Under the pieces are notes generated by a model. The model saw nothing but the letters and a program-made list of their open reading frames with translations, ran no database searches and was not told the DNA's origin. Below, piece by piece: positions 59,070 through 61,500 of a DNA stretch of 64,000 nucleotides. This stretch comes from an uncultured Alphaproteobacteria bacterium (GTDB lineage: Bacteria > Pseudomonadota > Alphaproteobacteria > RF32 > CAG-239): NCBI GenBank assembly GCA_944393235.1, contig CALXZJ010000004.1:4162-68161 (forward strand). Reading direction: 5' to 3'. The first letter of the stretch is position 1. The number at the start of each line of letters is the position of its first letter. The position numbers were made by a program, and so were the translations under genes.

Positions 59070-59693
59070 TTAATTTTGCCAAGTGACCATAATTTTGCAC
59101 TGATAGACAGCTGTGTCACAAAAGCCGCAAATATCTGCAATATCAGAGATTGTTAAATTTCGCAAACAACGTCGAGTTCCGTTGCACTCTTTATCACCGT
59201 AAAGATAACCTGAGTAAGCATCATTTCCGCCATCTCCGCCCAATTCTTCATCTTTCATGGAAACCCTATAAATTTGTGAAGCATTTTCTTTGGCAGCTAC
59301 CAGAGCACTTTGGCAGATTTGTTTTCCATAATCGTTTTGTTCAATATAAAGAGCCAAAATATTATAGGACGAGCCGGAATCAAAAGTATTACGGTAAACA
59401 CTTATTTTGTTACGAAACAGGTCATAAATATGAGGTGTGTCATAAATCATACCGTCCGGAATAAGGTTGAGCTTATATAAAATTTCATTATACGATGTTT
59501 GTGTACCGCTTGTTTCAAGCTGCGGCGTATATTGTAACGCATAGTTTAGAAGGATATTATACGATTCGGAAAACTTGTTGAGCTTGTATTTCATCATCGC
59601 CTTAGAGTAACCGGCAATCGCCCCAACGGAAAGCACGCCGATAATTGCTAAAACCCCCAACATCTCTACCATACTTCTACCACATTCGCGCAT
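59070..59693 (-). CDS. Type IV pilin-like protein, copy 4 (MRECG / RSMVEMLG...).
   Basis: Same N-terminus; C-terminal CNGTRRCLRNLTISDIADICGFCD; first 100 aa nearly identical to copy 5, then diverges. Confidence 0.75.
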   Translation of the reverse strand: MRECGRSMVEMLGVLAIIGVLSVGAIAGYSKAMMKYKLNKFSESYNILLNYALQYTPQLETSGTQTSYNEILYKLNLIPDGMIYDTPHIYDLFRNKISVYRNTFDSGSSYNILALYIEQNDYGKQICQSALVAAKENASQIYRVSMKDEELGGDGGNDAYSGYLYGDKECNGTRRCLRNLTISDIADICGFCDTAVYQCKIMVTWQN

Positions 59694-59730
59694 AATATTC
59701 TCTCCAAAATTGCAAAAAATACCTATTTAC

Positions 59731-59790
59731 GCGTCATTCTAAACCGTTTTTTTTTTTGCAATTTTAAAGAGTCTGGTGGGATAACTTACA
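59731..59790 (-). promoter_or_regulatory. Conserved pilin promoter block, copy 4, T tract 11 nt at 59746-59756.
   Basis: cgtcattctaaaccg-T11-gcaaattttaaagagtctggtgggataa. Confidence 0.4.
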
Positions 59791-59940
59791 ACCGGCACTT
59801 TATCGTCATGTCCCAATCCCCGTCACCCCATGAGCCGACGACAATCCCAATCCCCGTCACCCCATGAGCCGACGATGTCGGCGAGTTTAGGGGTCTCTCA
59901 AAAGACGCCTTAACCGCCGCACTACCGCGCATCGGTTGTA
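59791..59940. repeat. Mosaic repeat modules upstream of pilin copy 4, including a tandem duplication of a 30-bp unit.
   Basis: cccaatccccgtcaccccatgagccgacga occurs twice in tandem, followed by tgtcggcgagtttaggggtctc and gacgccttaaccgccgcactaccgcgc. Confidence 0.5.
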
Positions 59941-60066
59941 TGATAGTCCAACATCTCAATACCGGACAAATATAAAAAGAATGGGAAATAAATTATAAAT
60001 AAGGTTGTTCTTTTTCAGAAAATTGCTTATATTACATCATATTCGTGAAAAATAGGATACATAATC

Positions 60067-60663
60067 ATGAAAAAAATTATCGCAGGTCTTTTATTTTTGT
60101 ATGCAGGTGCAGTGCAAGCCCAAACAGCTGAAGATTTAAATAAAATTGAAAATTATCTCAACAATATAAAAACGCTTGAGGCGTCTTTTGTACAAATGGC
60201 CAGCAACGGGACAACTTCAGAAGGTAAAATTTATATTGAAAAACCAAGCAAAATTCGTATGGAATATGCCCCGCCGGTGTCAATCCGGATTATAGGCAAT
60301 GGTGATTATATTGTTTTTAATGATCAAGAACTCGATCAAATCACCAATATTGATTATGAAGATATTCCGGCAACCATGATTTTGGCAAATAATATCAAAA
60401 TTGATGATAAGGAGCTCAAAGTAACTGATTTTTATAAAGATTCCGGCTTAACTTCTATAACGTTGGAATACACCAAAGACAAAGATGTCGGGCCGATTAC
60501 GCTTGTTTTTTCCAACAATCCTTTTGAGCTTAAACAATGGAAAATAATAGATCCGCAAAGTGTGGAAGTCACGTTGTCGTTATACGATACAATACAAGAC
60601 AAACCTTTAGATGAAAATTTATTTAAATTTACCAAAGAAAAAGCACGTTCTCGCCGTCGCTAA
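60067..60663 (+). CDS. lolA: Outer-membrane lipoprotein carrier protein LolA-like.
   Basis: Signal peptide, ASFVQ motif early in the mature protein, about 200 aa. Confidence 0.7.
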   Translation: MKKIIAGLLFLYAGAVQAQTAEDLNKIENYLNNIKTLEASFVQMASNGTTSEGKIYIEKPSKIRMEYAPPVSIRIIGNGDYIVFNDQELDQITNIDYEDIPATMILANNIKIDDKELKVTDFYKDSGLTSITLEYTKDKDVGPITLVFSNNPFELKQWKIIDPQSVEVTLSLYDTIQDKPLDENLFKFTKEKARSRRR

Positions 60664-60685
60664 AAATCTTCTTGTTTTGAATCTT

Positions 60686-61438
60686 TTATAAATTCCAAAC
60701 AATTGAGATTTTACAACTTCCGGCGGCAGTGTCGCAAAAATCACAAACATCCGAAGTATCGGTTAATGTCATATTGTGCAGACATTTTCGGGTACTGTTG
60801 CAACTCTGAGTCCCATAAAGTCCATTTGAGAAAGAATCACCATTTTCATCACCTTCATCTTTCATACGGATATAATATATTTGTGAGGCGTTTTCTTTAG
60901 CAATGTTTATGCAAGTTTGGCAAATTTTTTTGCTTAAAGGAGATTTATCGAGATACAAAGCCAATATATTATAAGGTATGCCGGATTCGGAAACATTACG
61001 ATAAACCCCGATACGATTGTTAAAAATATCGTATATGCGTTGTTCTGATACAACATAAGTCATGCCGTCCGGAATAAGGTTGAGTTTATATAAAATTTCA
61101 TCATACGACGTTTGTGTACCGCTTGTTTCAAACTGCGGCGTGTATTGCAACGCATAGTTTAGAAGGATATTATACGATTCGGAAAATTTATTAAGCTTAT
61201 ATTTTTCCATCGCCTTAGAGTAACCGGCAATCGCCCCAACGGAAAGCACGCCGATAATGGCAAGAACCCCCAACATCTCAACCATACTTCTTCCGCATAG
61301 AGCCGCATCTGCTTGCAACTTTTCTCCTCGTGTACTTAATGTTGTACACGTCGTCGAAAAGTTACGGCGTATCTGCAGCCCTCTGCGCAAGAATGCATCA
61401 AAAGAACTCCCAAAACTGCAAAATAAATGTGTTTTCAC
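60686..61438 (-). CDS. Type IV pilin-like protein, copy 5. The pilin body is open in frame far upstream of the conserved GRSMVEML segment; the start codon is uncertain.
   Basis: Body ...CGRSMVEMLGVLAIIG... and C-terminal CNSTRKCLHNMTLTDTSDVCDFCD. The ATG with RBS (gaggagaaaagttgcaagcagATG) at about 61300 is out of frame with the pilin body, while an in-frame QADAALCG extension is conserved with copy 1. Confidence 0.6.
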   Translation of the reverse strand: MKTHLFCSFGSSFDAFLRRGLQIRRNFSTTCTTLSTRGEKLQADAALCGRSMVEMLGVLAIIGVLSVGAIAGYSKAMEKYKLNKFSESYNILLNYALQYTPQFETSGTQTSYDEILYKLNLIPDGMTYVVSEQRIYDIFNNRIGVYRNVSESGIPYNILALYLDKSPLSKKICQTCINIAKENASQIYYIRMKDEGDENGDSFSNGLYGTQSCNSTRKCLHNMTLTDTSDVCDFCDTAAGSCKISIVWNL

Positions 61439-61500
61439 GTCATTCTAAACCGTTTTTTTTTTGCAATTTTAAAGAGTCTGGTGGGGATAACTTACAATCG
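61437..61500 (-). promoter_or_regulatory. Conserved pilin promoter block, copy 5, T tract 10 nt at 61453-61462.
   Basis: cgtcattctaaaccg-T10-gcaattttaaagagtctggtggggataacttacaa. Confidence 0.4.

What the first reader, a model, noticed from the sequence alone, without database searches (positions are those of the whole stretch)
59070..61500. Dispersed five-member type IV pilin-like gene family with conserved ends and a hypervariable core
Five paralogous pilin-like genes lie on the minus strand at 13412-13985, 29511-30158, 37515-38141, 59070-59693 and 60686-61438, embedded among housekeeping genes. All share an almost identical prepilin N-terminus (short leader ending in Gly, then RSMVEMLGVLAIIGVLSVGAIAGYSKAM with Glu at +5). 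All also share a C-terminal motif C-x4-C-L-x2-(L/M)-(T/S)-(L/I)-(S/T)-x3-(D/E)-hydrophobic-C-x2-C. The 100-150 residues between these ends are extensively divergent. Copies 4 and 5 are nearly identical for the first 100 residues and then diverge abruptly, a pattern expected from segmental gene conversion rather than gradual divergence. This is the architecture of pilin antigenic-variation systems, but here every copy carries its own promoter instead of being a promoterless silent cassette. I do not recognise this family as a described system.
Basis: partly seen in the sequence, partly recalled or inferred. Interest (0 to 1): 0.85.

Follow-up and report, generated by a model that had tools for sequence, protein, structure and literature searches.

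The report
Dispersed type IVb pilin-like gene family
The window holds five scattered copies (one broken) of a very large, uncurated family of pilus-subunit-like genes from uncultured gut Alphaproteobacteria; each copy has its own conserved promoter-like block containing a slippery run of A's, which may let each copy be switched on or off separately.

Summary
Five minus-strand paralogs share an almost invariant G|RSMVEMLGVLAIIGVLSVGAIAGYSKAM N-terminus, a Cys framework and a divergent core. Corrections: copy 1 is a pseudogene, the Cys motif is C-x5-C in four copies, copy 2 lacks the final C-x2-C, and the copy 4/5 break is at residue ~84.

It does not behave like a Neisseria-type cassette system. 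Paralogs are old and rarely exchange segments, and every copy has a start codon and a conserved promoter-like block. That block has the layout ATTGC-poly(A)10-12-linker-TA(G/A)AAT. The spacing is 17 nt in 72% of copies, and the tract length differs between ~99%-identical strains.

Best reading: a repertoire of alternative pilin subunits switched copy by copy through poly-A slippage, and diversified by fast substitution and allele replacement between strains. No pilus machinery was found near any copy; whole genomes could not be searched. Rated as a new variant of a known kind.

The parts
59070..59693 (-). Copy 4, intact pilin-like gene (207 aa; leader MRECG, mature part from RSMVEM)
59736..59794 (-). 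Copy 4 promoter-like block: upstream motif, ATTGC (59762-59758), A11 tract (59757-59747), CGGTT, TAGAAT (59741-59736)
   Evidence: Tract region length differs between strains: 15 nt in the window strain against 16 nt in others.
59795..59953 (-). Copy 4 upstream hairpin modules (two tandem copies here)
   Evidence: Repeat families D10-D12 occur only upstream of family genes. Folding energy -60.6 kcal/mol, z -4.06. Identity between strains drops to 73-86% with indels.
60686..61294 (-). Copy 5, intact pilin-like gene (mature part; Gly codon at 61294); start codon uncertain
   Evidence: 98% nt identical between strains with dN/dS 0.05.
61295..61441 (-). Copy 5 5' UTR with ~95-nt leader insert, strongly structured as RNA
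   Evidence: Insert relative to copies 2-4. Folding energy -47.5 kcal/mol, z -3.75. The same kind of module sits at the copy 3 slot in strain L097.
61442..61499 (-). Copy 5 promoter-like block: ATTGC (61467-61463), A10 tract (61462-61453), CGGTT, TAGAAT (61447-61442)
   Evidence: The orthologous tract is A13 in L082 and A9 in L083.
61500..61591 (-). Copy 5 upstream hairpin module
   Evidence: Repeat families D10 and D12; fold.
59441..59685 (-). Segment of copy 4 shared with copy 5 (61054-61298) at 91% identity: the mosaic block
   Evidence: dS is 0.21-0.48 here and 1.6 downstream.
37515..38141 (-). Copy 3, intact pilin-like gene (208 aa)
   Evidence: 98-99% aa identical in contigs from other samples (six of eight shown); two carry a truncated 162-aa allele.
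38184..38382 (-). Copy 3 promoter-like block (GTTGC, A11 tract 38195-38205, CGGTT, TAGAAT 38189-38184) and upstream module
   Evidence: Across nine contigs the tract is A11 in five and A12 in four, including 11 against 12 in two contigs sharing the same truncated allele.
29511..30158 (-). Copy 2, intact pilin-like gene (215 aa, lacks the last C-x2-C)
30200..30453 (-). Copy 2 promoter-like block (ATTGC, A12 tract 30211-30222, CGGTT, TAGAAT 30205-30200) and upstream hairpin modules
   Evidence: A short-read contig from the same population ends at 30208.
13412..13886 (-). Copy 1, pseudogene: N-part 13707-13886 and C-part 13415-13693 in different frames, ~56 codons deleted
13887..14282 (-). Copy 1 leader insert, promoter-like block (ATTGC, A12 tract 14017-14028, CAGTT, TAGAAT 14011-14006) and upstream hairpin modules
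   Evidence: Hairpin folding energy -33.6 kcal/mol, z -4.79.

Best explanation
These genes belong to a lineage-specific multigene family of type IVb-like major pilins in uncultured gut Alphaproteobacteria, with tens of copies per genome.

Each copy is an autonomous unit of about 1.1 kb. It has a conserved promoter-like block, a short 5' UTR with a Shine-Dalgarno sequence, a class-III-like signal (leader ending in Gly, Glu at +5, a ~20-residue hydrophobic helix) and a variable globular domain held by a conserved Cys framework.

Inferred mechanism:
1. The invariant N-terminal helix lets any expressed copy be processed and polymerised by one shared pilus machine encoded elsewhere in the genome.
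2. Which copies are expressed is set copy by copy. Slipped-strand changes in the A10-12 tract alter the 17-nt spacing between the ATTGC element and the -10-like hexamer.
3. The repertoire itself changes slowly. It changes by rapid amino-acid substitution in the globular domain, by replacement of whole alleles between strains at a fixed slot, by occasional exchange of 5' modules between paralogs, and by decay to pseudogenes.

Shown here: the family, the fold, the promoter-block architecture, its length polymorphism, and the strain-level patterns.

Inferred only: transcription start, the effect of tract length on expression, cleavage by a prepilin peptidase, and filament assembly.
For: Fold:
- The copy 2 model has one continuous helix over residues 6-54.

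N-terminus:
- G5, R6, S7, M8 and E10 are invariant in 53 members.
- Between paralogs dS is ~1-2 with dN 0.03-0.1 over the first 36 codons. That is residue-level purifying selection, much stronger than a simple membrane anchor would need.

Weak sequence signals:
- N_methyl matches 78 of 80 members (best E 0.0027). PilS_N matches 3.
- The profile touches the TcpA and geopilin N-termini at E ~0.5.

Promoter block:
- About 110 nt upstream is conserved in all five copies, even though synonymous sites are saturated.
- Across 74 copies, the distance from ATTGC to TA(G/A)AAT is 17 nt in 53. Two sub-lineages reach 17 differently, as A12 + 5 nt or A10 + 7 nt. Nearly all departures are in the A run.
- All five homopolymers of 10 nt or more in the window are these tracts. 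The next longest is a single A9.

Tract instability:
- At orthologous slots in ~98-99%-identical strains the tract differs. Copy 3: 11 (five contigs) against 12 (four). Copy 5: 9, 10 and 13. Copy 4: 15 against 16 nt in total.
- A8/A9 control tracts were the same in all but one comparison.

Same promoter on other surface genes:
- In related MAGs the same architecture precedes DUF4402 secreted proteins, GT2 and GT8 glycosyltransferases, and a Cys-rich secreted protein. This is the gene set typical of contingency loci.

Diversification:
- Copy 4 has dN 0.055 against ~0.003 in flanking genes, and dN/dS 0.44 against ~0.1.
- The copy 2 slot holds a 43%-identical allele inside 99.5%-identical flanking DNA.
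- Strain L097 has a different leader module at the copy 3 slot.
- Pseudogenes occur: copy 1 here, and copy 3 in L093 and L094.
Against: - No prepilin peptidase motif or GspE/PilB/TadA-type ATPase motif was found in the window or in 1.06 Mb flanking 108 copies in 14 MAGs. Pfam-annotated neighbourhoods show only housekeeping genes. Known type IVb pilin genes sit next to their machinery.
- Position +1 is Arg, which is unusual. Pfam N_methyl (12.7-14.9 bits against 21.2) and TIGR02532 (about 10-12 against 16.3) are below threshold.
- Foldseek against the PDB gave nothing below E 0.06.
- The block is not called by a standard sigma-70 scan. With TTGCAA taken as the -35 element, the modal spacer would be only 15 nt.
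- Length differences in A10-13 runs between metagenome assemblies could partly be sequencing or assembly error. The only two differences between L081 and the window lie at a contig end.
- Any long homopolymer is unstable whether or not it has a function. An A-tract may simply be a structural promoter element.
- No expression data exist.
Confidence: 0.5

Rival explanations
1. Neisseria-type antigenic variation. The copies act as donors and recipients in frequent, programmed segmental gene conversion that reshuffles the variable core.
For: Copies 4 and 5 are a mosaic, with dS 0.21-0.48 before codon 84 and 1.6 after. 5' modules (leader insert, upstream hairpins) are exchanged between slots in different strains. 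The conserved 5' block could serve as a homology anchor.
Against: Only 3 of 569 same-genome paralog pairs share a segment of at least 80% identity beyond the N-terminal coding part, and the median 5' match ends at nt 117 (the screen undercounts, since it missed the window's own copy 4/5 pair). The copy 4/5 mosaic is fixed in all strains seen, and its dS is well above strain-level dS of ~0.03. There is no expression-locus versus silent-cassette division, because every copy has a promoter-like block, a Shine-Dalgarno sequence and a start codon. There is no conserved 3' repeat; homology at the copy 2 slot resumes 17 nt after the stop codon, in unique flanking DNA. Copies 3 and 5 are 98-99% identical across samples.
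Confidence: 0.08
2. Not pili. The proteins are anchored in the inner membrane by the N-terminal helix, or released from it, and act as individual periplasmic or surface proteins that have co-opted a pilin fold. The genome lacks a pilus machine.
For: No machinery was found in the window or within 10 kb of 108 copies. The +1 Arg and sub-threshold N_methyl scores are atypical. The genes are dispersed and single, unlike known type IVb operons.
Against: Thirty-six N-terminal residues are held nearly invariant across thousands of clusters while synonymous sites are saturated. This is the pattern of a helix that packs against identical helices and docks to a conserved machine. Gly(-1), Glu(+5) and the ~50-residue helix plus type IVb head domain are all retained. 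Only about 5-10% of any one MAG was inspected, so absence of machinery is not shown.
Confidence: 0.22
3. A static repertoire. All copies are expressed together or under ordinary regulation, for example by the adjacent two-component system, as functionally specialised pilins or adhesins. The A-tract is a fixed structural promoter element and its length differences are neutral noise or assembly error.
For: Individual paralogs are old, and some are 95-99% identical between species-level MAGs. Copies 3 and 5 are under strong purifying selection. An OmpR-type response regulator and a histidine kinase lie directly upstream of copy 5. A conserved ~32-nt motif upstream of ATTGC looks like an activator site. 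A-tracts are known to bend DNA (general knowledge).
Against: A perfect homopolymer of 10-12 nt is retained in more than 70 paralogs and two sub-lineages, while total spacing is compensated in the linker. A fixed spacer would not need to be slippery. 28% of copies are off the modal spacing. Tract length changes between near-identical strains, even between contigs with the same truncated allele. The same cassette is attached to glycosyltransferase and secreted-protein genes, a pattern typical of phase-variable loci.
Confidence: 0.2

Closest known systems
Type IVb major pilins (TcpA of Vibrio cholerae, CofA/LngA of ETEC, PilS of Salmonella Typhi and plasmid R64)
   Different: Sequence identity is only 13-16%, and no curated model reaches threshold. 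The leader is short (5-7 residues) in most copies, as in type IVa pilins. Position +1 is Arg. There are tens of unlinked single genes per genome instead of one gene inside a machinery operon, and no machinery was found nearby.
Bordetella pertussis fim2/fim3/fimX (from general knowledge, not tested here)
   Same: Several unlinked major fimbrial-subunit genes lie away from the assembly genes. Each has a homopolymer (poly-C there) between an activator site and the -10 element, and its length sets expression. The window also has a two-component system next to copy 5 and a conserved upstream motif.
   Different: Those are chaperone-usher fimbriae, not type IV pilins. There are three genes rather than tens. 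The tract is poly-C, not poly-A. Regulation in the present family is untested.
Mycoplasma hyorhinis vlp lipoprotein family (from general knowledge)
   Same: A multigene surface-protein family in which each gene has a poly-A tract in the promoter spacer. One length is ON, and copies switch independently to give combinatorial surface variation.
   Different: Those are lipoproteins in one cluster that also vary in size through coding repeats. Here the genes encode pilin-fold proteins, are dispersed among housekeeping genes, and have no coding repeats.
Neisseria pilE/pilS antigenic variation
   Same: Pilin genes with a conserved 5' part and a variable 3' part, in many copies, with one mosaic pair (copies 4 and 5).
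   Different: There are no promoterless silent cassettes. Exchange between paralogs is rare and old. There is no conserved 3' recombination sequence. The G-rich runs upstream of copy 4 are not conserved in the other copies.
Allelic pilin or fimbrial loci kept polymorphic in a species (Pseudomonas aeruginosa pilA groups, Dichelobacter nodosus fimA; from general knowledge)
   Same: The copy 2 slot holds unrelated alleles (43% identity) between 99.5%-identical flanks in different strains, with an extra gene inserted upstream in one of them.
   Different: Here this happens at one of many slots, and other slots (copies 3 and 5) are nearly invariant.
Large pilin-like paralog families of Planctomycetota, Verrucomicrobiota and Lentisphaerota (DUF1559/H-X9-DG proteins, Verru_Chthon cassette proteins; from general knowledge)
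   Same: Many dispersed genes with a prepilin-type N-terminus and divergent C-terminal domains. There is a weak N-terminal hit to TIGR02596 (E 0.005).
   Different: The globular domain is different, the lineage is different, and no poly-A promoter cassette is known for those families.

Membership tests
Type IV pilin superfamily (class III signal peptide; Pfam PF07963 N_methyl, TIGR02532) | Leader ending in Gly at -1, Glu at +5, then about 20 hydrophobic residues | tested here: met
   G5 and E10 are invariant in 53 members, followed by MLGVLAIIGVLSVGAIAG.
Type IV pilin superfamily (class III signal peptide; Pfam PF07963 N_methyl, TIGR02532) | Score at or above the curated threshold of the N-terminal methylation-site models | tested here: not met
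   N_methyl scores 12.7-14.9 bits against 21.2. TIGR02532 scores 9.8-11.8 against 16.3. Only profile positions 6/8-27 are matched. 78 of 80 members hit weakly, best E 0.0027.
Type IV pilin superfamily (class III signal peptide; Pfam PF07963 N_methyl, TIGR02532) | Hydrophobic +1 residue (Phe, Met, Leu or Val) that is N-methylated | tested here: not met
   Position +1 is Arg, invariant in the family. Methylation is not testable here.
Type IV pilin superfamily (class III signal peptide; Pfam PF07963 N_methyl, TIGR02532) | Long N-terminal helix packed on an antiparallel beta-sheet (pilin fold) | tested here: met
Type IV pilin superfamily (class III signal peptide; Pfam PF07963 N_methyl, TIGR02532) | Dedicated prepilin peptidase, assembly ATPase, platform protein (and secretin) in the genome | not testable with these tools
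   None in the 64-kb window. No motif match in 1.06 Mb around 108 copies.
Type IVb major pilins (TcpA, CofA, PilS class) | Type IVb head-domain topology, ~180-200 residues, disulfide-bounded C-terminal region | tested here: met
Type IVb major pilins (TcpA, CofA, PilS class) | Sequence membership of a curated type IVb family (for example PF08805 PilS_N) | tested here: not met
   No type IVb family model is listed for the window's own copies at E <= 1. PilS_N matches only 3 of 80 members, at E 0.0068 or weaker. Foldseek against the PDB gives no hit below E 0.06.
Type IVb major pilins (TcpA, CofA, PilS class) | Long leader peptide (15-30 residues) and a gene inside the machinery operon | tested here: not met
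   Most copies have leaders of 5-7 residues; some have possible 26-40-residue leaders. The genes are single and sit among housekeeping genes.
Neisseria-type pilE/pilS gene-conversion system | One expression locus plus promoterless, 5'-truncated silent cassettes | tested here: not met
   All five copies, and 74 copies in related MAGs, carry the promoter-like block and a complete 5' end.
Neisseria-type pilE/pilS gene-conversion system | Frequent segmental exchange between copies | tested here: not met
   3 of 569 same-genome pairs share a segment of at least 80% identity beyond nt 130 (an undercount, as the window's copy 4/5 pair was missed). The copy 4/5 mosaic is older than the strain split. 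Within-population frequency is not testable here.
Promoter-homopolymer phase-variable surface gene families (Bordetella fim, Mycoplasma vlp, Neisseria porA/opc type) | Homopolymer of at least 9 nt located between promoter elements | tested here: met
   An A10-12 tract lies between ATTGC and TA(G/A)AAT in all five copies and in 74 relatives. The modal spacing of 17 nt is kept by compensation in the linker. The promoter elements themselves are inferred, not mapped.
Promoter-homopolymer phase-variable surface gene families (Bordetella fim, Mycoplasma vlp, Neisseria porA/opc type) | Tract length varies among close relatives or within a population | tested here: inconclusive
   It varies between ~98-99%-identical strains from different samples, while A8/A9 controls are stable. 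These are assembly consensus sequences. Within-population reads were not available, and homopolymer error cannot be excluded.
Promoter-homopolymer phase-variable surface gene families (Bordetella fim, Mycoplasma vlp, Neisseria porA/opc type) | Expression switches with tract length | not testable with these tools
   No transcript or protein data are available.

The most novel reading that the evidence does not exclude
An uncultured gut alphaproteobacterial lineage devotes a few percent of a small genome to tens (possibly ~50-100) of autonomous type IVb-type major pilin genes. Each has a slippage-prone poly-A promoter. The same 'contingency promoter' cassette is also wired to glycosyltransferase and other secreted-protein genes. 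That would be a promoter-level combinatorial surface-variation system, with by far the largest pilin repertoire known. It would be built on an unusual prepilin signal (+1 Arg) and a machine that is unlinked or of an unknown type.
Probability: 0.35. Interest if true: 0.75.

Novelty: new variant of a known kind. Interest (0 to 1): 0.6.

Why it matters
These Alphaproteobacteria are common but uncultured members of human and animal gut communities, and almost nothing is known about their surface biology. If the reading is right, they maintain a very large, individually switchable set of pilus subunits. Such a set would bear on how they attach, evade immunity or phages, and persist. It would also add a second pilin-variation strategy (many complete genes with slippery promoters) beside the Neisseria cassette model.

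There are practical consequences too. The family has no Pfam model despite 5,471 clusters at 50% identity. Its conserved 5' blocks break short-read assemblies of these genomes at predictable points. The promoter cassette gives a simple sequence handle for finding candidate phase-variable genes in this lineage.

Tried and rejected
- **The AFDB library** was not available.
- **Rfam** found nothing in or upstream of the genes, at gathering or E-value thresholds. A riboswitch or known leader RNA therefore has no support.
- **A standard sigma-70 scan** did not call the conserved block, so the promoter assignment rests on conservation only.
- **Sigma-54, sigma-28 and ECF-type readings** of the block were considered by eye and fit poorly.
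- **A G-quadruplex upstream** (as at Neisseria pilE) was considered for the G-runs at 59800-59870, but the other copies lack them.
- **Diversity-generating retroelements and shufflons** were considered. No reverse transcriptase, template repeat or recombinase lies near the copies. The one integrase seen (L094) belongs to an element beside tRNA-Gly.
- **Motif searches for assembly ATPases and A24 peptidases** in the window and 1.06 Mb of related loci were negative. They cover only a fraction of each genome.
- **Four literature searches** returned nothing on this family or on pili of this lineage.
- **A fuzzy-regex scan** for the hairpin modules timed out and was replaced by the repeat finder.
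- **The two differences between L081 and the window** in the copy 4 promoter were not used as evidence, because they lie at a contig end.

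
Full report
**1. Observation**

A six-frame motif search finds exactly five G-R-S-M-V-E-M-L-G sites in the 64-kb window, which has 41.6% G+C.

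The four intact copies align over their whole length. The first ~40 residues are nearly invariant, and identity to copy 4 is 70%, 38% and 41%. In a 53-member alignment, column entropy is 0.04-0.26 bits for residues 11-40 and 2-3 bits for most of the rest.

Several details need correction:
- Copy 1 is a pseudogene. It matches residues 5-64 and 121-213 of an intact 213-aa ortholog (P0117) in two different frames, so about 56 codons are missing.
- The Cys motif is C-x5-C in copies 2-5, and copy 2 lacks the terminal C-x2-C.
- The copy 4/5 break is at residue ~84.
- The copy 5 ORF as listed includes a 5' extension whose ATG is out of frame.

The surrounding genes are ordinary housekeeping genes: the ATP synthase operon, PriA, S6/S18/L9, HemN, ComM-like, QueA, Lgt, an ABC exporter, aroA, glycosyltransferases, TatA/TatC, LolA and a two-component system.

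**2. What the proteins are**

Curated sequence models see only a weak N-terminal signal:
- Pfam N_methyl scores 12.7-14.9 bits against a threshold of 21.2.
- TIGR02532 scores about 10-12 against 16.3.
- There are weak N-terminal hits to GspH-type models.
- Of 80 family members, 78 hit N_methyl below threshold and 3 hit PilS_N weakly.
- A family profile touches the TcpA and geopilin N-termini in the PDB only at E ~0.5.

Structure prediction is clearer:
- Copy 4, modelled with 53 homologs, gives pLDDT 82.9 and pTM 0.77.
- Copy 2, the most divergent copy, modelled with 80 homologs, gives pLDDT 88.3 and pTM 0.83, with one continuous helix over residues 6-54 followed by a beta-sheet head.
- Foldseek found nothing.

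The signal is a hybrid: usually a short leader as in type IVa pilins, the size and fold of type IVb, Gly(-1) and Glu(+5) invariant, and an invariant Arg at +1, which is atypical.

**3. Size and distribution of the family**

- One search returned 7,901 hits among the 8,000 candidates scored. None carried a precomputed Pfam domain, and nearly all were unnamed.
- An exhaustive profile search of the 50%-identity representatives found 5,471 clusters at E <= 1e-3, 3,627 at 1e-10 and 617 at 1e-30.
- The best 80 lie in 14 MAGs. Thirteen are titled Alphaproteobacteria or Proteobacteria from human, deer and other gut samples. One is labelled Lachnospiraceae and is presumably mis-binned.
- Up to 12 of the 80 loci kept come from a single MAG, and extra copies occur about once per 20-45 kb of flank. 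The window itself has one per 13 kb.
- Adjacent copies are co-oriented: 26 same-strand pairs against 4 opposite.

**4. The gene unit and its promoter-like block**

In the DNA alignment of the five copies, about 110 nt upstream is more conserved than the synonymous sites of the coding region. Further upstream lie modular hairpin repeats, out to ~450 nt. Within this window these occur only upstream of family genes.

The core is [~32-nt motif TTAT.C.CA..GACTC.T.AA]-ATTGC-A(n)-linker-TA(G/A)AAT. About 35 nt of UTR with GGAG follows, and then the ATG.

Across 74 copies from the window and 14 MAGs:
- The ATTGC-to-hexamer distance is 17 nt in 53 copies, 16 in 11, and other values in 10.
- The window's sub-lineage reaches 17 as A12 + CGGTT. 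The other sub-lineage reaches it as A10 + CGCGAGC.
- The spacing is therefore conserved by compensation while a perfect homopolymer is retained.

In the window:
- The tracts are A12, A12, A11, A11 and A10 for copies 1-5.
- They are the only homopolymers of 10 nt or more. There is one A9 and eighteen 8-mers.

A generic sigma-70 scan does not call the block, so 'promoter' is an inference from conservation and position.

**5. Strain comparison**

The window is the same population as three short-read contigs of ENA sample ERZ28614432, at 99.98-100% identity. Those contigs end at or just outside the promoter blocks.

Contigs from other samples are ~98-99% identical in flanking genes (dS ~0.03, dN/dS ~0.1). 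Against that background:
- **Copy 5** is 98% identical, with dN/dS 0.05.
- **Copy 3** is 98-99% identical at protein level in contigs from other samples. Two contigs carry a truncated allele, and one (L097) has the long-leader module instead of MRECG.
- **Copy 4** is 93.4% identical, with dN 0.055 and dN/dS 0.44. There is no change in codons 17-84, and 19 replacements fall after codon 84.
- **The copy 2 slot** in L100 and L101 holds an allele only 43% identical. Homology resumes 17 nt after the stop codon at 99.5%, and the 5' block is ~85% identical. One strain has an extra Cys-rich ORF upstream.

Tract lengths at orthologous slots differ: copy 3 has 11 (five contigs) and 12 (four), copy 5 has 9, 10 and 13, and copy 4 has a 15- or 16-nt tract region. 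A8/A9 control tracts agree in all but one comparison.

**6. Recombination**

- For copies 4 and 5, dS is 0.48 (codons 1-36) and 0.21 (codons 37-83), against 1.6 for the rest. The two parts therefore have different ages, and the mosaic is real.
- The same structure is present in all strains seen. Its dS far exceeds strain-level dS, so it is an old event between two neighbouring paralogs.
- Among 569 same-genome paralog pairs in the MAG loci, only 3 share a segment of at least 80% identity beyond nt 130, and the median 5' match ends at nt 117. This screen undercounts, because it missed the window's own copy 4/5 pair.
- For the other window pairs, the first 36 codons have dS ~1-2 with dN 0.03-0.1. 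The shared N-terminus is kept by selection on the protein, not by homogenisation.
- A few copies are 95-99% identical between species-level MAGs. This means either conserved orthologs or transfer.

This is a stable repertoire of old paralogs, not a shuffling cassette system.

**7. The same promoter on other surface genes**

In related MAGs the xTTGC-A(9-12)-linker-TAxxAT architecture also precedes other genes, identified by Pfam:
- three DUF4402 secreted proteins;
- a GT2 and a GT8 glycosyltransferase;
- a Cys-rich secreted protein.

Homopolymer-bearing promoters attached specifically to surface-structure genes are the usual signature of contingency loci.

**8. Machinery**

Nothing in the window resembles pilus, Tad or type II secretion machinery. 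Motif scans for GspE/PilB/PilT/TadA-type Walker A boxes and the A24 GxGD motif were negative in the window and in 1.06 Mb flanking 108 copies; the only hits were PriA, UvrB-like and ClpX-like proteins. Pfam-annotated neighbourhoods from other samples are also negative. This covers perhaps 5-10% of any one genome, so presence elsewhere is open.

**9. Interpretation**

The best-supported reading is a lineage-specific family of type IVb-like major pilins organised as autonomous, dispersed units. The invariant helix implies a shared processing and assembly partner. The poly-A promoter spacer provides copy-by-copy switching. The repertoire is diversified slowly by substitution, inter-strain allele replacement, occasional module exchange and gene decay.

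Confidence differs by layer:
- pilin-fold family: about 0.9;
- filament assembly: about 0.65;
- poly-A phase variation: about 0.5.

The last is the least supported.

**10. Novelty**

No Pfam or NCBIfam model and no paper in the searchable library describes this family. Each ingredient is known elsewhere: type IVb pilins, promoter-homopolymer phase variation as in Bordetella fim or Mycoplasma vlp, and allelic pilin loci. The combination and scale appear new, so the rating is a new variant of a known kind, of moderately high interest.

Noticed in passing
L051 (- strand, ~14291), L060 (- ~10872), L078 (- ~1524), L026 (+955), L022 (+8176), L032 (+68): The same xTTGC-poly(A)9-12-linker-TAxxAT promoter architecture precedes non-pilin surface genes in related MAGs. 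These are DUF4402 secreted proteins, GT2 and GT8 glycosyltransferases, and a Cys-rich secreted protein. This suggests a lineage-wide contingency-promoter cassette.
   Followed up: partly
window 61709-63769 (-): An OmpR-type response regulator (63080-63769) and a HisKA histidine kinase (61709-63067) lie directly upstream of copy 5 on the same strand. The arrangement is conserved in other strains. Together with the conserved ~32-nt motif upstream of ATTGC, this makes them a candidate regulator of the family. Not tested.
   Followed up: no
window 14060-14282, 30260-30453, 38243-38382, 59795-59953, 61500-61591: Modular hairpin repeats occur only upstream of the family genes in this window (repeat families D10-D12, D15, D18, D19). 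Predicted folding is strong (z -4 to -4.8), arms differ in a compensatory way between copies, and module number varies between copies and strains. Their function is unknown; they could be insulators, terminators or protein-binding sites.
   Followed up: partly
window 61295-61441 and 13887-14005; L097 ~7240-7360: A ~65-95-nt insert sits between promoter block and Gly codon in copies 1 and 5. In copy 5 it folds strongly as RNA (-47.5 kcal/mol, z -3.75) and buries the candidate Shine-Dalgarno sequence. In strain L097 a similar module replaces the short leader at the copy 3 slot and reads as an in-frame 40-residue basic leader. It is unclear whether this is a long type IVb-style leader peptide or a regulatory RNA.
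   Followed up: partly
window 14070, 30208, 59792: Short-read contigs from the same population (ENA ERZ28614432 scaffolds 5110 and 2789) end at or just outside the family's promoter blocks. Many GTDB loci likewise have the gene at a contig end. The conserved 5' blocks systematically fragment assemblies of these genomes.
   Followed up: yes
80 GTDB loci (L001-L080) and the window: Neighbouring family copies are co-oriented: 26 same-strand pairs against 4 opposite, plus 4 of 4 in the window. This may reflect replication direction or selection against inverted repeats.
   Followed up: partly
window 38754-42707 (-): A 1,317-aa ORF with no Pfam match lies next to copy 3. It has internal 66-nt and 137-nt repeats (D7, D8, D13) and a length that varies between strains (1,292-1,317 aa). 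It may be another variable surface protein.
   Followed up: no
window 14409-17198 (-): A 929-aa ORF lies next to copy 1. It has an 18-nt-period repeat (14614-14745) that matches the Glu-Pro repeat of procyclin below threshold.
   Followed up: no
L100 1-1029; L032 ~106-730: Cys-rich repeat proteins with no confident Pfam match. One is inserted upstream of the copy 2 slot in another strain, in a region absent from the window.
   Followed up: no
window 42976-43050 (+); L094 11772-12486: The only RNA gene in the window is tRNA-Gly(GCC). In strain L094 a phage-type integrase gene follows the large repeat-protein gene on the side where the window has tRNA-Gly. This suggests an integrated element in that strain.
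   Followed up: no
CAAFZY/CALETM/JAJWCP loci (e.g. L034 vs L032, L002 vs L006): Some family genes are 95-99% identical between different species-level MAGs. For a fast-evolving family this hints at recent transfer between species or unusually conserved orthologs.
   Followed up: no
window 45231-45238 (+): A T8 run lies inside the first codons of a GT1 glycosyltransferase gene (45215-46357). No strain data were available to see whether its length varies.
   Followed up: no
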